NCBI GenBank assembly: GCA_918797485.1 | Contig: CAKKNE010000006.1 | Location: 3,348,001-3,412,000 of the forward strand | Direction: 5' to 3' | Source: Pelagomonas calceolata | Taxonomy: Eukaryota | Length of the DNA stretch: 64,000 nt | Shown: piece by piece, positions 1 to 60,834 of the stretch | Position numbering within the stretch: position 1 is the stretch's first letter | How the letters are laid out: each line of letters starts with the position of its first letter | Notes under the pieces: generated by a model | The model's database searches: none | The model's input: only the letters and a program-made list of their open reading frames with translations | Told to the model about the DNA's origin: nothing | Position numbers and translations under genes: made by a program

Positions 1-648
1 GAGCCGGTCGAGGCGGACGGTGGCGACCTGTGTGGAAACCAACCAGTGCGTCGGGTGCACCCGACAATTCTTCACTAAGTCATTCCTCGGCGATGACGCT
101 GCCGTGCTGGCTCCGTCGAGCGGTGAGGAACCGGCACCGCCACGCCATCGAGCACGCGCAACGCGCCGTAAAATTTTGATTTCCACACAGGTGGCGACAT
201 TTTCGTTCGGGCGGAACAACGCAGTGTCCGAGGCTGTGTGGAAATCAACCAGTGCGTCGGGTGCAATTCTTCACTAAGTCATTTCCCGGCGATGACGCGG
301 CCATCCTGGCTCGGTCGAGCGGTGAGGAACCGGCATCACCACGCCATCGAGCAGGCGGCGCGTCGATGGCGTGGAGGTCGACGCGAAGATTCAGCACGAA
401 CGCGCCGTAAAATTTTGATTTCCACACACAGGTCCGAGGCCTTCTCGCGGGGCATGCGCTTCCGCACGGACATGCTCTTCAACGGCAGCATCTGCGGCGC
501 GCAGCGCGACAAGAATGGGGATCCGGACTTCGGCGCGCCGTGCGCGTTCGACGCCGTCCGCGAGGACCTGGCGCGGCGGCCGCTGCGGGGCGTGCCGGAC
601 GGGAGGCCGTTCCTCGAGGCCCGCCGGGACCTGGCTCGGAGGCGATGA
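1..648 (+). CDS. 3' part of hypothetical protein (5' truncated by window), two introner introns
   Basis: Exons <2-19, 191-225 and 432-648 join into one open frame (SRSRRTVATFSFGRNNAVSEAFSRGMRFRTDMLFNGSICG...LARRR*) after removing GT-AG introns 20-190 and 226-431. Confidence 0.6.
28..190. mobile_element. Introner/MITE copy 1
   Basis: TIRs ctgtgtggaaaccaa / ttgatttccacacag; perfect 8-bp TSD gtggcgac at 20-27 and 191-198; intron 20-190 (+). Confidence 0.95.
234..431. mobile_element. Introner/MITE copy 2
   Basis: Same TIRs (right one has an extra ca); TSD gtccgagg at 226-233 and 432-439; intron 226-431 (+). Confidence 0.95.
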
Positions 649-701
649 CACGAGTAATTACCATCGGATGGACCATTGCGGGGCGGGCGGAGGCGAAGCG
701 A

Positions 702-3700
702 CTACGCGGGCGCGACCGCGCCGGTGCGGCTCGGCGCCCGCAGGCACCACACCGCGCACGGGTGGCAGAACATCGTCCAGCCCATCAGGCTAATTCCCAC
801 GAGTAGGCCCATCGGCGAGTAATAGAACCTGTGTGGAAATCAAATTTTTACGGCGCGTTCGTGGCCGTCGAGTCATCGACGCGACGCCGGCTCGATGGCG
901 TGGCGATGCCGGTTCCTCGCCGCTCGACCGAGCCAGGACGGCCGCGTCATCGCCGGGAAATGACTTAGTGAAGAATTGTCGGGTGCACCCGACGCACTGG
1001 TTGATTTCCACACAGAGTAGAACATCGTGGGGGCCTTGAACCAGTAGTCGTGCCTGCCGCATCTCCGCAAGTGCCCCTTCGATTCGTGATGCTCCCACCA
1101 AACGCACGTGTCAAAGCGTTGTGGTACAAGAGCGGAGACCATCCAGAGGCCGGTAAAGAAGAAAAACCAAGCGAAACTGTGGAAGCACAGATTATCCCAC
1201 GCGAACCGCGTGCAGCCGCAACTCGTCGCCTCGGAGAAGACCACCTTATCGAGTTCCTTCTGCGCGTCGTCGTCGGCCTCGGCCTGGAGCATCTCGGCGA
1301 TCTCCCGGCCGAGCCGCGACTGCGCCAGACCCTCCTCGCCGCCGGCAATCCTCAAAAACACCTTCTCCATCGTCGCGCGCGCGAGCGAAAAGTCGATCAC
1401 GCCGAGCCGCGCGCAAGCGTCGTCGTCGAACGCGCGGAACGCGAGCGCCGGCGTCCGCCGCGGGTCGACGCCCGCGAGCTCGAGCGTCGCAATGTCCGCG
1501 TCCGCGGCGGCGACGTCGACGTCCGGCGACGAAAAGGCCTCGCGCGCGAACGCCACGAGGTCCGCAACGTGCGCGTCGTCCCGCGTCTCCAGGCGGCACG
1601 AGATCTCGTAGCCCGCCGCGTAGCGCTCCTTGAGCTCCTGCGGCGTCCCGATGCAGCGCATGGTGCCCTTGACCATGATGCCGAGGCGGTCGCAGAGGAG
1701 ATCAGCCTCGCCCATCGAGTGTGTCGTCAGGACGACGGCGCGGCCCTTCATAGTGACCTTGATGAGGTCCCAGAGATTCCTTTGCGCTCCTGGATCCAGG
1801 CCCGACGACGGCTCGTCCAGCAACACCACCGAGGGGCCGCCGACCAGCGCCACCGCGACCGCCAGCTTGCGCTTCATGCCCCCCGACAGGCGGCCGGCCG
1901 CTTTGTCGGCGTGGTCGGACAGGCCGACGACGGCGAGCGCTTGCTCCGCGGCGTGGCGCGCGTCTCCTTCGATGTCGACGCCCCGGAGCCGCGCGAAGAG
2001 ACTCAGATGGTCTCGGCCTGTGTGGAAATCAACCAGTAATTCTTCACTATCGAGCAGGCGTCACGTCGATGGCGTGGAGGACGACGCGATGATTCAGCAC
2101 GAACGCGCCGTAAAATTTGATTTCCACACAGGTCTCGGCAGCTCAGGTGGTCCCAGAGGACGTTCTTCTGGTTGACGACCTGTGTGGAAATCAAAATTAT
2201 GGCGTGGCGATGCCGTTTCCTCGCCGCTCGACCGAGCCAGGTCGGCCGCGTCGTCGCCGAGAAAAAAATCTTCGTGAAGAATTGTCGGGTGCACCCGACA
2301 CACTGGTTGATTTCCACACAGTTGACGACGCCGAGCGACCGCGCTGCGCGTTCGAAGTCCTGTGTGGAAATCAAATTTCGGGCGCCCCACGCCATCGACG
2401 CGATATTTTCTCCGTAGCTGCGTCTGCTCGATGGCGTGAAAGTCAGCCTAACTCACTGGTTGATTTCCACACAGCTCTTGACGGCCAGCACGCTCTTCCC
2501 CGCGACCCTGGCGTCGCCGGACGTCGGTTCGACGGCGCGGCAGATCATCGACACGGTCGTTGTCTTTCCGGCGCCGTTCGCGCCTAGTAAACCAAAAACC
2601 TGGCCCGTCGGCACGCCGAACGCCGCGCACTGGACGGACTCGACGGCCGCACCGCCGAAGAATCGCGGCGGATATATCTTCCGCAGCTCCGAGACGACGA
2701 GGCCGTCGCGGTCCGCTGACTTGATGTCTCGCACGAGCGGCGGCGGGTACGGGTCGTCGCCCGGCGGCACGTTCCGCAGCATGGCGACGGTGTCGCGCAC
2801 GGCGGCGGAAAACCTCGTCGGCGGCGGCCGCGACGGCGGCGCTTCCTCCTCCGGCTCGTCTACCACAATCTGGAAGTCGTCTTCGTTCGTCGACAGGGCG
2901 TCGCCCGCGCTCGCGGCGTCGCCCGCGCCGGTGAGTGCCGCGACGCGCGCGCGCTCCGCGGCGACGTCGTCGGGCATCGCGTTCGCGCGCACCTTGGAGA
3001 CCCGCGTCTTCACCCAGGCGAGCGGGCGCAGGGCCCGTTGATCTTTAAAGAAGACTATTCCTTCATAAAGTATGATGTGGAAAAAGGCGAAGATCACGGC
3101 CGCCCAGCCGCTCGGTAAAGGCGGGTCCGCGCGCTGCCGCGAAAGGGGCCCGTCGCCCGACGCCTCGAGAAATCCCCTGCGCTTCAGCTGCGGGTGGAAA
3201 GCCACCTTGCAGACCTGGACCGCCAGGTTGCCGAACGGCGTTGCGATCGATGCAAGCCACCCGAACTTACAGGAGATATCCTGGTATAGGAGCTGGTTGG
3301 GGTTGCTTGTTGTGACCACCCACCAAAGTCCTGCGAGCCCGGCCGGTGCCGCGCCGCCCACGAAAGCGATGAAAATGGGCGTCGACGCGACCGCAATGAG
3401 CGGCGAGTCGAACGTCGTCGTCGCGAAGTGCGAGAAGCTCACGATCCCCGCGCTGCAGAGCGGCAGTAAAATCCACAACCACGGCCAGCGCTCCATCCAG
3501 CGGCGGACGACGAACTTCGTGGCGTTCTGCCAGGCCCCGGCCCCGATGCCGCGGTCCCAGATGCTGTCGCAGTACCACTGCGTGATGGTATCGTAGGAAT
3601 CGGAGCTCCAAATACCGTTCTGGTCTTCTTGAAAGCCCCCCGGGTACCGGTCGTGGAAGGCGGTTGCTAGCGACGTGGCGGTCGCGTTGTAGGGCCCGAG

Positions 3701-15434: not shown

Positions 15435-16082
15435 ATGCGCAAGTTCGCTCTCGCGTTCGCTTGCGCGGCGAGCAGCCTGCAGACTGCGCCGCGACGCTGC
15501 TACAAGGCACGGCGGCGCCACGCGACGCCCGACGACGACGACAACACAAAGTGGAGCGTCGACGTCGACGAGTTCGCGGAGCGCATCGAGTCCGCCAAAG
15601 CCGCGGTTGTTGGTGGTCTCGCCGCGTCGGTCGCGGCTTCGCCGGCGGAGTTCCTCACGCATACGAACAACATCGCCCAGTTCGAGTTCGACGTCGACCA
15701 GATCTCGATCGCGGGCGCGCTCTTCGGACTCGTGTTCCGGTCTGTGTGGATATCAAATTTCAGGCGCCCCACGCCATCGAATAACCTAGCTCACGGTTGA
15801 TTTCCACACAGGTTCCGCTACGCGGTGCGGCGCGACAACAATCCACAGCTGCGCCAGGGCGTCGTCGGCGCTTTTACAATTACGCGCGCGGTGGCCACGG
15901 TGCGCGTGAGCGACGAGTGCCTCGCGGTGCCGCTGCGCTGCGGCCCGCCGCTGTCGTACCTCGACTACGCCATGCTCGGCCAGCTCGTTTCGGGCCTGCT
16001 CGTCTCGGGCGTCGCGTTCGCGGCCGCGGCCGCCGCAGTTGATGCGGGCGTCGACCGGGGGTGGCTTAAGAGGTTTCCTTAG
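15435..16082 (+). CDS. Probable plastid-targeted membrane protein (~189 aa)
   Basis: Signal peptide plus transit-like N-terminus; removing introner intron 15734-15811 gives LFGLVFRYAVRRDNNPQLRQGVVGAF; several TM segments. Confidence 0.75.
15742..15811. mobile_element. Introner/MITE copy 8 (70 bp)
   Basis: TIRs ctgtgtggatatcaa / ttgatttccacacag; TSD gttccggt / gttccgct (7/8). Confidence 0.92.
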
Positions 16083-54395: not shown

Positions 54396-54506
54396 CTGAC
54401 GCGTGTGTGAAATAATGTGCCATCGAACCTGCCCGACGGCGTATGGGGGGTGTGTATTAGTCGATTCTTATAGACAAGCGCCTTGTGCGCACGGCCGGAT
54501 AGGGCC

Positions 54507-57500
54507 TCAGGCGACGCGCTGCGCCGACGGGTCCGGCACGTACTCCCGGCCGACGACCCCGTCCAAGCGCTTCTCGTCCATGCCGGCGTAGCCCGCGCCG
54601 GCGTGGTAGCCGTGGAAGACCTTCGCCGCGATCTCGACCTGGGCGTCCTTGGGCACCATCTCCGGCGGGATCTCGACGCGGTTCACTATTTTAATACCGG
54701 ACTCGACGATGGCGTTGTACTTCATGTCCGACATACTAATAAAGTTGTGGATCTTCGTGATGCCGAGCCAGTGCAGGACGTCCGGCATCAGAGCTTGAAA
54801 ACGCGTATCTTGAACACCGGCAACACTTTGAGTGCAGTTGAAGTACTCCTTGGCTTTATCCCCTCCTTCTTGACGCTTGCGCATGTTGTACACTAGGTAT
54901 TTGGTGACCTCGCCGAGGGCCCTACCTTCCTTGCGGAAATACACCACAACGCCCGTGCCGCCGCGCTGCGCCGTCTTGATGCACTCCTCGATGGCGTGCG
55001 TGAGGTACGGTCTACAGGTACAGATGTCGCTGCCAAACACATCACTCCCGTTGCACTCGTCGTGGACCCTCACTGTCAATTCGACGTCCTCGTCTTCTAT
55101 TTTGGACGCGTCGCCCCATATATAAGCCGTCATGCCGCCGATGGGCGGCAGGAAGATCTTCAAATCGTCCCTCGAGATTAACTCAGGATACATCGAGTTC
55201 GTCTCCGCGAACAGCGCATCGCGCAAAACCCTCTCAGAAACCCCAAACCGCTTCGCCACGCCCGGCAGGTACCAGACCGGCTCGATGGCTGCTTTGGTGA
55301 CGACTGAAGTACCGTCGTCCGTCAAAACGGTCCCATCGGGAGTCAGCCTTTGCATGCGCAGGGCCTCCAAGCACTCCGGGAGTTGGACGTGAGCTTTCGT
55401 GATGGCGATCGTCGGTCTCACGTCATAGCCCTTGTCGAGCCAAGCGCCGAAGCCCTCGGAGATGGCGTGGCCCCAGGGATCCATAGTAACAATAGCGTCG
55501 GAGTTGCGCCACGCTTCATGAGGACCGATCTTGGCGGCCGGCGTCGTCAAGCCCAACTGCGGTAAGGCATCTCTATCAATTTTCCCCGCGGCCACCGCTA
55601 ACGCGCGATACACGGAATAACCACCAGCATGCGCACCGATGGCGTTGCGTTGCGTCGTATGTCGCGTCGTCGCCAGGACCGGGCCTCGGTCCGACGGTGT
55701 CGTGGCGCCCCACCTCATTCTACAGGGATCGGGCCCGAAACTCCCATCGTGCGTCGTGAGCTGCGTGGCCGCCTCGTCCTCCGATTTTGGTAAGGGGATC
55801 TCTCCAGTATTACCGGAGACGTCTCCTAGTATGAGGGTGGAAGGCTCCGATCTAACACGTGTGAGACTTTCAGCCGAGTCGGCGCGCGGCCGTCTCGGTC
55901 TCGTAGGCCGCGCCCCGGCCTCCTCCCAGGCGTACGTCGCGCCCAACGCCAACTGCTTCTCGAGGGCCTCGTTGGCGACGATGTCTTTTGCAGATAACAC
56001 TCCAGTAGCTCCGAACAACCGATCCCCGGCATCCCCCAACCCAGGTAAGAGCCCACCATCTCGCGCCAATCGCCCGTCCACTTGTATGGCGTAGACCTCG
56101 ACGTCTGGATGCGCCTCGTGGAGCGCCCGCAGGCCTTCGGCCGACCTGTGTGGAAATCAAATTTTACGGCGCGACACCTGCTCGATGGCGTGGCGATGCC
56201 GGTTCCCCACCGCTCGACGGAGCCAGGACGCACTGGTTGATTTCCACACAGCGGCCGACGCGAGCACCGTGCACGCCACGATGCGGTGCGCGCCCCAGGC
56301 CTTGAGCTTGGCGATGACGGGAGTCATCGTTTTTGCAGTGGCCACCACAGGATCCAAGATGAAGGCGATATCACAACTATCGCCGCCGTGCTTCGGGAGT
56401 CGCGAGTAGTACTCGACGGGCCGATCACTCCCGCTCCGCTTGAACATGCCGATCTGGTGCACGGCCGCGTTCGGCAGCAAAGCTTGCATGCTCTCGACCA
56501 TGCCTAATCCTGCCCTCATTATAGGCACTAAGGCACACCTCGCGGCGAGCCGCGTCGCTCTACCATCAGCAGGAACGTGGACGCCGCGCGGCGTGACGCA
56601 GTCGTGGCGCGGCACCGTCGACAAGGATCGCGTCGCCTCGTAGCCCACGTAGCTCGCAAGCTCCCGCAGCAGCCCGCGGAAGTCGCGCGGCTTCGTCCTG
56701 CGGTCTCTTAGTAAAGTGACCTTGTGCGCCGCGAGGGCGTGCTTGATCAAAGTTGTTTGAGGCGGCAGGTCGTAGGTTACAGGTGAAGGACTTGGGGCGT
56801 CGGGGTCGTCCCAGCCAATCGCGTCCAATGCAGCGCAGACCGCCCAGGCCCGATTCACGTCGAAGCGCTCCGAGCCGTCTATATCACTCCTCAGACCGCT
56901 CTCCATGTCGATCCAGATTGATCTACCTCTAGCGGCGCCCTTCCGTAATTGATCTAAGACGGTAGCGACGTTGTCCCTGTTTAAGCCTCCCGCAAAACCC
57001 TGCGGGATTGACGTTTCTACTGTTGTAAGAGACGCATCTAACGTATGACCACGGCCGCAGGACGCGTCCCACAGCAGCGACAGGTTGGCCGGCGGCTCGT
57101 CCAGCAACGCGCGCCAGAGCGGCGCCGTCTCGTCGTTGGCCTGGACGATGAACTCGACTTCGGGAACGAGTGAGCAGGCCTTTCGGACTTGTTGAGCTGC
57201 TTTTGCAAGTAGTGAGGGGTCCTCGGCGGTCTTGCAGCCGTTCGGCGCCGTCGCGTTGAGCTGCACGCGCCGGAAGCCCAGCCCGACGAGCGTCTGCACG
57301 AAGGCGACGTCGCCCCGTTGCAGGACGTCGTCGACGGCGGAGCCGCACAAATGGCCGGCGAGCTGCGCCGGCGGGCTCGTGTTCCGTGCGGTTTTCGCGA
57401 GCTGCTCGAGCCACCTTCTCGTGGGGAATCTAGGTTGGCCTTCTTTGCCCGGCCGGAAGAGCACGCCGAGTTCCACACGCGGCCAGCGGCTCACGATGGC

Positions 57501-57563
57501 ACTCAATAAGCTCGGGTCGACGCTGTCGTCGACGCCGCAGAGGCCTACTCGGTGTAGGGACAT
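54507..57563 (-). CDS. TrpF-like TIM barrel + uracil phosphoribosyltransferase + Urc1/Urg1-type GTP cyclohydrolase II fusion (~980 aa)
   Basis: Exons 57563-56260 and 56145-54507 total 2943 nt in frame. [28 protein letters not shown]. Urc1: [57 protein letters not shown]. Confidence 0.88.
56146..56251. mobile_element. Introner/MITE copy 10
   Basis: TIRs intact; TSD cggccgac at 56138-56145 and 56252-56259; intron 56259-56146 (-) restores [11 protein letters not shown]. Confidence 0.95.
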
Positions 57564-58167
57564 GCTTTCAGACGTTCTTCTGGCGGTTTCACTTGGTGAG
57601 CGGCTGCGTAGTAGGTGTGCTTTGGCACGGCGACCGCGTGCGCTGGGGAGGTGCTTCAAATAACGCGTTTGCGCCTCGAAGAACACCTTTTTTTGATATG
57701 ATGTCACACGCGCAGAACTCTTGCAGCGCGATGCCGTGGGCGCTGCAGGCTCTCGTGCAGCTAGAACTGTTTGTTGCTGAGCCTCAACCGCTGTTGCACA
57801 GCTGAAAGGGCCTCTATGTGCGTCGTAAATGCGGATTCAGAGCTGGGCAAAAATCTCTGTATACCCGTTATATTCGAATTAAATTTCAAACGCAAACCAG
57901 TTTTAAAGCTCCACAGGAGTCGCGCGCGAAAGGTTGATGCACGACTCGTCGCTGTGGACCGCGGCAGCGGCGCCGTATTTTCATCTTTTTGCCAGCCTCT
58001 CCCACTCAAAACCGCGTCGCCTTTGCGCACATTTGCAGCCAGGGCTTACGCGTGGGAGTACTCCGAGCCGTTCGCAGCGCTGCGAGGATTTTGCGCCGCG
58101 CGAGCCGCTTGTAAAGCGAGGAGAGACTTGCAGCAATCAGCAGCACAGCTAAAAAGCCGCCGCAGCG

Positions 58168-60834
58168 ATGGGCTTCGGCGCAGCGAGCCCGGCGGAAGCA
58201 CGCGCAAAGCTCGAAAAGCTCAAGCTCGAGGCGACCGCCGCCGCGGCGGCACCGCCAACACCAAGCAAACCGGAGGACGAGGACGCCGTCGCCCGGCTCG
58301 CCCAGAAGATCCTGCGATCGTCATCAATAGAAGAAGCGCGGCAGCACGCGCGCGAGGCGACGAACACGACGAACGACCCGCGGCTAGCGCCGCTCTTCCA
58401 GTCGCCGAGCAAGGGCCGGGACAAGGCGACGCCCGGGTGGCCGGAGAGCGTCGAAATGTACCTGGGCCCGACTAATTCCGGAAAGACGCATCGCTCGCTA
58501 GATTTCCTCGCGAAGATTGGTTCGGGTTGTTATGCGGGGCCGTTACGCGCATTAGCTTGGGAGGTCCGCCATAGCGTCGAAGCGCGCGCCAAGAAGGTCT
58601 GGGGCGAACATCCACCTACGGTCGGATTGTGGACCGGTGAAGAATCAAGAGATCCGGACGCTCCGGTACTATGCTGCACCGCGGAGGTCGCCCCGTCGCA
58701 CGGCAACGTTTTGGTATTGGACGAAGCGCACTGGTGCGCGGACCCGCAGCGGGGCCACGCCTGGACTCGTCTATTATTAGCGGCTAGATCTGGTAGATAT
58801 AGGCACGTTCGCATCTGCGGCCCGGTCCAGTCCGAGCCGTTACTACGGCGAGTCTTCGAGAAGCATGAACACGCGGTGACGGTCCATCGCACGCAACGGC
58901 GCAGTCGATTGCATTTTGAAAGGGACCCCATCGCGGACTTTCCGGCCTTCCTACAGCAAGCGAAGTCCGAAAGGCGCTTCGTTGCAGTAGTCGCGTTTTC
59001 TCGAGCCGCCGTGTTATCATTAGCGGGCATTGCTCGCAAGGCCGGGGCAAGGGCGTCGGTGATCTTTGGCAAATTACCCCCCGAGGCGAGACGGAAGCAG
59101 CTAGATGATGCTCTGGCGGGCAGGTTAGATGTCCTCGTTTGTACCGATGTGATAGGGCACGGTATTAATCTCCCGCTCGACGACGTCGTTTTCGCCGAAA
59201 CTAAAAAATTTGATGGAACACAAAGACGAGATTTGTATGTGTGGGAGGCGGCGCAGGTGGCTGGTAGGGCGGGGCGCGACGAATTGCCGGGGAGGTGCTG
59301 GTACTTACCGAGATATGGTGCTAATGTGAAGCTGCTGACCAAAGCCGTCAAGGCAGCAAACGGTGATCCCGGTGATGGGTTTGATTTAGATTTGTCCAAA
59401 GCGGTCTTAGCGCCGGATCTCTCTGCTTTGACGCAGTTGACCGGGAGCGTGCCATCTATACTCTTACTACCGAAGTGCGTAACGCAGTGGCGGGACGAAT
59501 TGCAACGGTCGCTGAATGATTCAGATGATCCCTTGGACTGGGTGAAATCGGGAGACATCGATGAGCTTCAGCGACGCCTGGACATCCTCAGGAACAGTAG
59601 TTTGGTGCCGGACGACGTGCGCAAAGCTTTGTCGGCGTCCGATCTGTGGCATCTCGCGCGGTTGCCCGTGCGGGAGCAGCATTTCGAAGCTGTCGCTAGA
59701 GCAGCTTGTCTGGGGGAACAGGTCGTGTTCGGTTCGTTAGATTCGTTAGTCGATGAACAATTGGAGGATGAGGTGCAAAGATTAGGAGACGTCCTGATGG
59801 CGTCGCGACGATTTCCAGCCATCCTAGTCGGGGACGACGCTGTGGATGAAGATGACGCGTGTCTGGCGGCGGTCGCGTGCCACGAGGCCTTGTATTTGTA
59901 TGGAAGCAGATTGATCGGCCACGGGGTTGGAAGACAAATAGACGACGCCCACCTGTGCAAAGTCTGCGGCCAGCCCAAGGGTCCCAATTCAAAGATAAAG
60001 GACCGGCAATGTAGGAGATGCTTCGCCATTCAAGATCGGGAAGCGGCCCAGGCCGCGCGCCAGCTCGCGCGCCAGTACGCGCGCGTCCAAGCCCGGTCGC
60101 AACCGCCGCAATTGGGTTACGCGCTCAGCGGCGGGCAGCCGCCGCCGCAGCCGTACGCAGCCGGCGCCTTCGCTTCGCCGCCAGCGCCGCCGGCCATGAG
60201 CGTCGGCGACCGCGCTCGTTTAAGAGCGCAACAGGAGGCCGCGGCGCGCGTGCGGGGCCTGCCGCCCGAGCTCCTGCGCGACGCGGAGTCGGCGCGGGCG
60301 TCGCGTGAGGCGTCGGCGGCGTCGCGCGAGGCGCGCATGGGGCAGCTCGCGGCGGCATCGGCGGCCGCGCGCCGCGTCGACACCGAAGCCGAGATCATCC
60401 GGAACCAGGCCGCGCGCGGCCGGCCCCTGAACGCCGCGGAGGCCGAGGCCATCGCGGCCCAGGTCGTCGCGGCGCGAGGCCAGCACCGGCCGCCCGGGAA
60501 GCCGGCTCGGGAGCCCGGGAAGCGTATCCGGGGCGGCAAGAAGCACGCGGGTGCCCGGGAGGCGGCGCGGGCGCGCGAGCGCGCGCAGGAAAGCGGCGCC
60601 ATCAATCGAGGTAAACCGGTCATCCGGCCGCCGGGTCAGCAGAAGCCGGGGCCCCTCGAGATCGCGCGCGCGGCGAATCGGGCGCCCCGGGCGCCGCGGC
60701 CCGTGCCCCCGACGCCGGCATACTTACCAGCCGGCGAAGTTTACTTCCACCCGCCTCGGAACGGGCTCGGGCGCGGGCGCGGCGGGCGCGGCGGACGCGG
60801 CGGACGCGGCTCGGGCCCGCCGGGGTTCATCTAG
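58168..60834 (+). CDS. Suv3-like SF2 helicase with low-complexity C-terminus
   Basis: GPTNSGKT, YAGPLRALA, DEAH, RGHAWTR, VAFSR, TDVIGHGINL and QVAGRAGR motifs. Confidence 0.85.
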   Translation: MGFGAASPAEARAKLEKLKLEATAAAAAPPTPSKPEDEDAVARLAQKILRSSSIEEARQHAREATNTTNDPRLAPLFQSPSKGRDKATPGWPESVEMYLGPTNSGKTHRSLDFLAKIGSGCYAGPLRALAWEVRHSVEARAKKVWGEHPPTVGLWTGEESRDPDAPVLCCTAEVAPSHGNVLVLDEAHWCADPQRGHAWTRLLLAARSGRYRHVRICGPVQSEPLLRRVFEKHEHAVTVHRTQRRSRLHFERDPIADFPAFLQQAKSERRFVAVVAFSRAAVLSLAGIARKAGARASVIFGKLPPEARRKQLDDALAGRLDVLVCTDVIGHGINLPLDDVVFAETKKFDGTQRRDLYVWEAAQVAGRAGRDELPGRCWYLPRYGANVKLLTKAVKAANGDPGDGFDLDLSKAVLAPDLSALTQLTGSVPSILLLPKCVTQWRDELQRSLNDSDDPLDWVKSGDIDELQRRLDILRNSSLVPDDVRKALSASDLWHLARLPVREQHFEAVARAACLGEQVVFGSLDSLVDEQLEDEVQRLGDVLMASRRFPAILVGDDAVDEDDACLAAVACHEALYLYGSRLIGHGVGRQIDDAHLCKVCGQPKGPNSKIKDRQCRRCFAIQDREAAQAARQLARQYARVQARSQPPQLGYALSGGQPPPQPYAAGAFASPPAPPAMSVGDRARLRAQQEAAARVRGLPPELLRDAESARASREASAASREARMGQLAAASAAARRVDTEAEIIRNQAARGRPLNAAEAEAIAAQVVAARGQHRPPGKPAREPGKRIRGGKKHAGAREAARARERAQESGAINRGKPVIRPPGQQKPGPLEIARAANRAPRAPRPVPPTPAYLPAGEVYFHPPRNGLGRGRGGRGGRGGRGSGPPGFI

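What the first reader, a model, noticed from the sequence alone, without database searches (positions are those of the whole stretch)
54507..57563. Three-domain enzyme fusion suggesting a variant URC uracil-catabolism pathway with an uncharacterised TIM-barrel step
Seen: removing introner 10 joins two ORFs into one ~980-aa protein. It has an N-terminal barrel ([47 protein letters not shown]; TrpF/PRAI-like), then UPRT, then Urc1/Urg1-type GTP cyclohydrolase II with its N-terminal extension. Established: in Lachancea kluyveri the URC pathway uses Urc6 (UPRT) and Urc1 (cyclohydrolase-like) with Urc4 to degrade uracil via UMP to urea; TrpF barrels act on phosphoribosyl-amine substrates. Inference: the fusion channels uracil to UMP to a ring-opened product, and the barrel acts on a phosphoribosyl intermediate, supplementing or replacing Urc4 (none in this window). 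This would suggest a function for an orphan barrel family and a route to pyrimidine nitrogen. Caveat: the PRPP loop (DPVVATAKT) is somewhat divergent.
Basis: partly seen in the sequence, partly recalled or inferred. Interest (0 to 1): 0.85.

Follow-up and report, generated by a model that had tools for sequence, protein, structure and literature searches.

The report
Algal uracil-degrading fusion with orphan barrel
One spliced algal mRNA encodes a three-part protein that joins two enzyme domains of a known uracil-breakdown route to a widespread orphan barrel domain, which likely frees urea from the route's last sugar-urea intermediate in place of the usual Urc4 enzyme.

Summary
A 114-nt introner intron (56146-56259) is spliced in RNA, giving a 980-aa protein: PRAI-like TIM barrel, UPRT, then a Urc1 domain 60% identical to solved UTP cyclohydrolase. 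The fusion is one clade shared by pelagophytes, dinoflagellates and diplonemids. It was already tabulated for Aureococcus in 2014, but as the tryptophan PRAI.

A URC-type uracil-catabolism role for UPRT plus Urc1 is well supported (~0.85). Direct UMP channelling is not, because the solved homologue is a UTP enzyme.

The barrel is probably not the working TrpF. It belongs to a large unnamed TrpF-paralogous family (4,267 clusters; protists, phages, megaplasmids) with its own invariant residues, and Pelagomonas has a canonical InGPS-PRAI.

That the barrel replaces Urc4 is plausible (~0.4). It fills Urc4's slot in the bacterial urc1-urc4-upp trio, and no Urc4 appears in the 88% of the Pelagomonas annotation I could see. 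Against this, the fusion arose once, and stand-alone barrels were never found near urc genes.

Verdict: new variant of a known pathway, with a testable substrate lead for an orphan family.

The parts
57564..57847 (-). 5' UTR (many molecule ends at about 57832); contains no ATG, so no upstream targeting peptide
56260..57563 (-). Coding exon 1 (barrel plus first three quarters of UPRT)
56808..57563 (-). Orphan TrpF-paralogous (beta/alpha)8 barrel, aa 1 to about 252
   Evidence: AF2 pLDDT 94; best structural matches PRAI, Z 17.6; Pfam PRAI 22.3 bits, under cut-off 22.7
56010..56747 (-). Uracil phosphoribosyltransferase domain (Urc6/Upp-like), split by the intron
   Evidence: PF14681 positions 2-159 and 161-205; NF001097
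56146..56259 (-). 114-nt introner-element intron (GT..AG, terminal inverted repeats, 8-bp TSD, in-frame TGA if retained)
   Evidence: spliced joint 56137-56252
54507..56145 (-). Coding exon 2 (end of UPRT, variable linker of about 80 aa, Urc1 domain, stop)
54543..55778 (-). Urc1/UrcA UTP-cyclohydrolase-type domain (GTP_CH_N plus GTP_cyclohydro2)
   Evidence: NF005536 650.5 bits against cut-off 403; PDB 7EEV/7EJ3 E 1e-161, TM 0.88, 60% identity
54460..54506 (-). 3' UTR, ending at a read pile-up at 54460
   Evidence: table 6

Best explanation
The gene makes one spliced mRNA for a 980-aa barrel-UPRT-Urc1 protein that likely runs a URC-type uracil breakdown in the cytosol, with the orphan barrel likely taking over the Urc4 step. 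Shown: gene structure, splicing, domain identities, conservation. My odds: URC role of UPRT plus Urc1 about 0.85; barrel acting on the phosphoribosylurea product about 0.4-0.45.
For: Splicing and a full-length transcript. Urc1 domain matches UTP cyclohydrolase structures; its Cys motif [21 protein letters not shown] is intact in 26 of 26 fusion proteins. Bacterial urc1 is followed by urc4 in 8 of 8 genuine bacterial loci and 3 of 4 annotated plasmid loci opened, with upp next in 5 of the 8 and 3 of the 4; the fusion holds upp and urc1 with the barrel as third member. Among 120 long Urc1 proteins: 25 barrel+UPRT+Urc1, 44 Urc1+Urc4, none with both barrel and Urc4. The barrel keeps TrpF-equivalent Cys9, Arg45, Gln101, Asp166, GxAGG and D-x-E/S-S-G, and all 22 fused barrels keep the family-invariant E31, H71, C73, R99, Q101, N103, D166, E221, R225. 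The P. calceolata annotation (about 14,640 of 16,667 rows visible) has a canonical InGPS-PRAI, two RibA genes, urease and uridine kinase, but no DUF1688 and no entry named dihydropyrimidin* or ureidopropionase. No upstream ATG in the 284-nt 5' UTR.
Against: All fused barrels form one clade (SH 94) and all fused Urc1 domains one clade (SH 100), so this is one fusion event, not repeated evidence. No urc1, urc4 or upp was found near 74 stand-alone eukaryote-type barrel loci (many short) or 80 phage barrel loci. The 15 barrel-bearing and 16 urc1-bearing plasmids share no record. So most of the family works without URC. The Urc4 absence is incomplete: 12% of the table is unseen, the fusion itself is not in the seen part, and the window's species is inferred. 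The gene's Pfam/InterPro marks are not in the P. calceolata nitrogen DEG tables. The search only saw proteins of 749 aa or more, so barrel-less UPRT-Urc1 fusions (about 650 aa) could not appear. No activity data.
Confidence: 0.42

Rival explanations
1. UPRT and Urc1 do URC-type catabolism, but the barrel is a general phosphoribosylamine or ribose-5-phosphate-adduct clean-up (damage-control or salvage) enzyme that became fused once; urea release is done by an unseen Urc4 or another enzyme.
For: The family has 4,267 clusters at 50% identity, mostly stand-alone. It is common in phages and megaplasmids without urc genes. Single phage neighbours include NUDIX, RNA ligase, HAD_SAK_2, RlaP, Thg1, a nucleoside-deoxyribosyltransferase-like protein and a dCMP deaminase, which is also ordinary phage content. 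N-glycosidases fused to RibA as damage control are a precedent (recalled, from no call).
Against: The fusion has been kept with an intact active site in three distant lineages. No Urc4 in about 88% of the P. calceolata annotation.
Confidence: 0.33
2. The barrel is the organism's working tryptophan-pathway PRAI (TrpF), as tabulated for Aureococcus in 2014, and is only incidentally fused.
For: Closest solved folds are PRAI. TrpF-equivalent Cys and Asp are present in this protein. PMC3942023 Table 1 lists the fusion as Aureococcus's only PRAI beside an entry named InGPS.
Against: P. calceolata has a canonical InGPS-PRAI (Pca_4p06120). Diatoms have InGPS-PRAI as well as stand-alone barrels. A TrpF profile scores the barrel 11.9 bits (best of 151 barrels 21.7) against at least 196.5 for its own training members. 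NCBIfam TrpF 21.5 against cut-off 215. The beta-1 Cys is Thr in 11 of 11 plasmid and phage members and 74 of 80 viral members. No N-terminal targeting extension.
Confidence: 0.08
3. The protein serves salvage or riboflavin synthesis (UPRT for UMP salvage, true GTP cyclohydrolase II) rather than uracil catabolism.
For: No other PF14681 UPRT in the visible 88% of the P. calceolata table, so this domain may also be the salvage UPRT. Databases name the protein 'GTP cyclohydrolase II'.
Against: RibA models score far below cut-off (63.8 against 148; 54.1 against 205.9) while the Urc1-type model scores 650. 60% identity to UTP cyclohydrolase against 14-18% to RibA. Separate RibA genes exist.
Confidence: 0.07
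4. The barrel in the fusion is non-catalytic (ligand-sensing or structural).
For: No functional data; some TrpC-TrpF fusions in ochrophytes are pseudoenzymes (PMC11528492 passage).
Against: Putative catalytic residues are invariant across the 22 fused barrels (21 of 22 at C9, D12 and R45) and shared with stand-alone and phage members.
Confidence: 0.06

Closest known systems
URC pathway (L. kluyveri URC1/4/6, S. pombe urg1-3, bacterial urc1-urc4-upp cassette)
   Same: Urc1-type cyclohydrolase and UPRT together; urea as likely nitrogen product (PMC7530994 and PMC3869809 passages; operons).
   Different: One polypeptide; no Urc4 found; a TrpF-paralogous barrel is the third module; urease rather than urea amidolyase would finish the route (inferred).
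UrcA UTP cyclohydrolase (PDB 7EEV, 7EJ3; Zhang et al. 2021 ACS Catal, seen only as a reference line)
   Same: 60% identity, TM 0.88, identical Cys/His motif.
   Different: Here it is the C-terminal domain of a eukaryotic three-domain fusion; activity untested.
Phosphoribosylanthranilate isomerase TrpF (PF00697; 1NSJ, 1PII)
   Same: Best structural match (Z 17.6, rmsd about 3 A); equivalent Cys, Arg, Gln, Asp and phosphate-site motifs.
   Different: 15-20% identity; below all curated cut-offs; about 50 aa longer; own invariants E31, H71, C73, R99, N103, W217, E221, R225; Cys replaced by Thr in prokaryotic and phage members; coexists with canonical TrpF.
Aureococcus 'PRAI-UPRT-GTPCH' fusion (Imanian and Keeling 2014, PMC3942023, Table 1)
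   Same: Same architecture; the Aureococcus cluster is the nearest named relative (69% barrel, 84% Urc1).
   Different: The paper lists it only as a tryptophan-pathway PRAI; in the passages and section part I read there is no URC interpretation and no mention of it in dinoflagellates or diplonemids.

Membership tests
Urc1/UrcA UTP cyclohydrolase | GTP_CH_N plus GTP_cyclohydro2 and NF005536 above cut-off | tested here: met
   247.9 and 61.1 bits; 650.5 against 403
Urc1/UrcA UTP cyclohydrolase | Fold and Cys/His motif as in 7EEV | tested here: met
   TM 0.88; motif identical, 26 of 26 fusions
Urc1/UrcA UTP cyclohydrolase | UTP ring-opening activity | not testable with these tools
   needs an assay
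Uracil phosphoribosyltransferase | PF14681 above cut-off; R(A/S)GLGM and PG(L/F)GDxGDR motifs | tested here: met
   124.2 plus 40.3 bits; motifs in 26 of 26 and 25 of 26 fusions
Uracil phosphoribosyltransferase | Canonical PRPP loop DPMLATGGS (consensus recalled) | tested here: inconclusive
   DPVVATAKT here; the same variant type DPLIATADT in 3 of 4 bacterial urc-operon UPRTs; TIGR01091 below cut-off on the split exons
TrpF / PRAI | Curated HMM cut-offs (PF00697, NCBIfam TrpF equivalogs) | tested here: not met
   22.3 under 22.7; 21.5 under 215; own TrpF profile 11.9 bits
TrpF / PRAI | (beta/alpha)8 fold with PRAI as nearest structure | tested here: met
TrpF / PRAI | Catalytic Cys (beta-1) and Asp (beta-6), phosphate site | tested here: inconclusive
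   C9, D166 and GFAGGL present here (D166 and GG aligned by hhalign and MAFFT; C9 matched by motif and strand register only); Cys is Thr in prokaryotic and viral members
TrpF / PRAI | PRA isomerase activity and role in Trp synthesis | not testable with these tools
   a canonical InGPS-PRAI exists in P. calceolata
URC pathway (system) | Urc1 and Urc6/Upp present | tested here: met
URC pathway (system) | Urc4 (DUF1688) present | tested here: inconclusive
   absent from the window (the profile finds 44 control proteins); 0 in about 14,640 of 16,667 P. calceolata rows; no whole genome held
URC pathway (system) | Induction by and growth on uracil | not testable with these tools
   published N-source DEG tables searched lack the gene's Pfam marks; the conditions seen in those rows were nitrate levels, urea and cyanate
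Pelagophyte introner element | TIRs, 8-bp TSD, GT..AG splice sites, many copies, clean splicing | tested here: met

The most novel reading that the evidence does not exclude
The barrel founds a large unnamed enzyme family (thousands of clusters in protists, phages and megaplasmids), descended from TrpF, that cleaves or rearranges 5'-phosphoribosylamines. In pelagophytes, dinoflagellates and diplonemids it has replaced Urc4 in a horizontally spread one-gene uracil-nitrogen scavenging pathway.
Probability: 0.35. Interest if true: 0.82.

Novelty: new variant of a known kind. Interest (0 to 1): 0.6.

Why it matters
It gives a concrete, cheap substrate hypothesis for a very large orphan TIM-barrel family that databases label PRAI or hypothetical. 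It points to a route by which abundant oceanic algae and other marine protists could take nitrogen from pyrimidines. It also questions a published assignment of the Aureococcus fusion to tryptophan synthesis, and shows a three-domain metabolic gene shared by three distant eukaryotic lineages, likely by horizontal transfer (differential loss not excluded).

Tried and rejected
No whole genome held, so Urc4 and TrpF could not be searched directly.
phmmer of the barrel against PDB sequences: 0 hits; the profile gave only weak PRAI hits.
Barrel pattern scans with the eukaryote-type alignment found nothing in genome contigs or viral contigs.
Barrel profile: 0 of 9 genomes behind the urc1 loci (one, L014, is not a true bacterial urc locus), 0 of 301 and 0 of 301 in two phylum samples; positive control 5 of 5 plasmids. 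The prokaryote-type profile gave 7 weak partial hits (E 5e-5 to 1e-3) in 301 genomes; one of them (G628) lies on the TrpF gene found, the others look like TrpF by length but were not checked.
No conserved neighbour for barrels on plasmids, eukaryotic contigs or phages; the commonest real neighbour was an HNH endonuclease in 8 of 62 groups.
30 longer barrel proteins showed no enzyme domain above cut-off.
Supplements of PMC13284251, PMC11375080 and PMC9133084 gave no usable annotation rows; picture-only PDFs were not searched.
Primary URC papers and the UTP cyclohydrolase paper were not held.
pdb_via_wide was never run.
Our findings index returned nothing.
Run X9 showed no spliced contig and X1 only a short-sided one; contigs cannot show levels, so nothing is concluded from that.

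Full report
Observation. The minus strand carries ATG 57563 to stop 54507. A 114-nt intron (56259-56146) starts at a GT inside an 8-bp target-site duplication, ends at the AG of a terminal inverted repeat and holds the only in-frame stop; removal gives 980 aa. It splits the UPRT domain between Pfam positions 159 and 161. PolyA reads from 4 runs of one sample show the skip in 38, 24, 18 and 63 reads, with no step in depth across the intron. Single contigs from two other studies cover the whole CDS spliced (2 of 4 runs). The 284-nt 5' UTR has no ATG, so no targeting peptide precedes the barrel; a cytosolic location is inferred.

Source. The nearest named relative is Aureococcus. With the introners and about 64% GC, I infer a pelagophyte, likely Pelagomonas calceolata. 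No call confirms the species, and no genome was held.

Domains. The C-terminal domain scores 650.5 against a cut-off of 403 on the Urc1-type model and far below RibA cut-offs. Its model matches PDB 7EEV and 7EJ3, titled UTP cyclohydrolase, at 60% identity and TM 0.88, against 14-18% for RibA. The UPRT keeps its motifs, and its unusual PRPP loop resembles that of UPRTs in bacterial urc operons. The N-terminal domain folds as a TIM barrel (pLDDT 94) whose best matches are PRAI (Z 17.6; the first 8 rows are PRAI, PdxJ follows at 15.9), but it fails all TrpF cut-offs.

Distribution of the fusion. Contiguous three-domain proteins occur in pelagophytes (Aureococcus, Chrysophaeum, CCMP2097), dinoflagellates (Crypthecodinium, Polykrikos) and diplonemids (Namystynia, Artemidia), several from transcriptomes. 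Of 120 listed Urc1 proteins of 749 aa or more, 25 have barrel+UPRT+Urc1, 1 is a truncated member whose cluster mate has the barrel, 44 have Urc1+Urc4 and 50 have neither partner; none has both barrel and Urc4. Shorter barrel-less UPRT-Urc1 fusions could not appear in that search. FastTree trees give one clade for fused barrels (SH 94, 151 rows; the three rows labelled solo inside it are two barrel-UPRT fragments and a 95%-identical short relative of this gene) and one for fused Urc1 domains (SH 100, sister Pythium; 95 rows after dropping 27 near-redundant rows). Both split as pelagophytes against diplonemids plus dinoflagellates. One origin followed by transfer is likely; direction and loss scenarios were not tested.

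The barrel family. A profile finds 4,267 clusters at 50% identity (1,459 at E 1e-30 or better). Stand-alone members occur in oomycetes, diatoms and haptophytes, phages and megaplasmids. Invariant across 22 fused, 117 stand-alone and 11 prokaryotic rows are E31, H71, C73, R99, Q101, Q141, D166, S168, G170, G172 and GxAGG; D12, R45, W217, E221 and R225 are nearly so. Several map on TrpF's site (R45, Q101, D166, GG, D219). The beta-1 Cys, crucial for TrpF according to a passage in PMC11528492, is present here but is Thr in 11 of 11 prokaryotic and 74 of 80 viral members. I infer an active enzyme that binds a 5'-phosphoribosyl substrate and may need ring opening by Asp without TrpF's Cys base, which suits hydrolysis of a glycosylamine. 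This is an inference from conservation only.

Pathway context. In yeast, Urc1 and Urc6 make 3-hydroxypropionate and ribosylurea, and Urc4 releases urea (passages of PMC7530994 and PMC3869809). Bacterial urc1 is followed by urc4 in 8 of 8 genuine loci (the ninth, L014, is a eukaryote-like fragment) and in 3 of 4 plasmid loci opened (the fourth is sparsely annotated). None of those genomes has the barrel (control). The window has no Urc4. The published P. calceolata table (PMC9481584 supplement file 4, cut after about 14,640 of 16,667 genes) has a canonical InGPS-PRAI, two RibA genes, urease and uridine kinase, but no DUF1688 and no named reductive-pathway enzyme. It also lacks the fusion's own Pfam marks, so the gene lies in the unseen part, is mis-annotated, or the species differs; the Urc4 result is therefore only suggestive.

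Results against. Stand-alone barrels had no urc1, urc4 or upp neighbour in 74 eukaryote-type loci or 80 viral loci, and the 15 barrel plasmids and 16 urc1 plasmids do not overlap. The gene's marks are absent from the nitrogen DEG tables of PMC12054182, while a xanthine/uracil-family permease is strongly induced by low nitrate. Since the solved homologue is a UTP enzyme, direct UMP channelling is unsupported.

Literature. PMC3942023 (abstract, passages, first part of Results) lists the Aureococcus PRAI-UPRT-GTPCH fusion as a tryptophan enzyme. Ten full-text searches found no URC reading of it and no description of the barrel family; subscription papers are largely missing from that library. Zhang 2021 and Andersen 2008 were seen only as reference lines, so the UrcA products I give are recalled. 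The supplements of these unseen papers and the cut part of the P. calceolata table may bear on the Urc4 claim.

Verdict. A real, expressed fusion, already noticed in Aureococcus but probably assigned to the wrong pathway. URC-type function about 0.85; barrel as Urc4 substitute about 0.4; general phosphoribosylamine clean-up about 0.33; true TrpF under 0.1. New variant of a known kind, interest 0.6.

Noticed in passing
ESM Atlas row 7 for L130:4001-4726: A 661-aa bacterial cluster (60 members, commonest Chlamydiota) carries GTP_cyclohydro2 (98%) and a methyltransferase (100%) plus an unannotated barrel that superposes on this family at TM 0.74, above true PRAI rows (0.69-0.70). Possibly a second barrel-cyclohydrolase fusion; could not be fetched.
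   Followed up: no
P0171-P0186, P0200: Proteins with two tandem Urc1 domains (one named Diacronema, a haptophyte); the two copies form separate clades.
   Followed up: partly
P0202-P0217, P0249-P0277: Urc1-Urc4 fusions in Hoyosella and in protists (Cercozoa, Ammonia, Lapot, Ancoracysta).
   Followed up: partly
L014:4792-5561: A bacterial MAG contig ends in a piece 84-91% identical in DNA to this gene's Urc1 region, preceded by an introner-like repeat: likely a eukaryotic contaminant or chimera.
   Followed up: partly
L007, L010-L013: These urc operons add an aldehyde dehydrogenase upstream (5 loci) and, where annotated, a uridine-kinase-family gene downstream (L010-L013), fitting C3-aldehyde disposal and uridine entry.
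   Followed up: partly
window 28-2474, 4833, 15742-15811, 35958: Further copies of the same introner terminal repeat; reads from other expressed copies pile up on the intron.
   Followed up: no
window 58153-60834 and L053: A Suv3-type helicase gene lies head-to-head with a closely related barrel in metagenomic contig L053, and the window ORF in the same position looks like the same helicase by its motifs.
   Followed up: no
P0164: An NCBI-sourced gene call from a close relative reads into an intron at the same position and misses Urc1, showing how the introner breaks automatic annotation.
   Followed up: no
P0016, P0307, P0320, P0328, P0332, P0346: Barrels at the C-terminus of long proteins with no Pfam match; low-complexity N-terminal part seen in P0016.
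   Followed up: no
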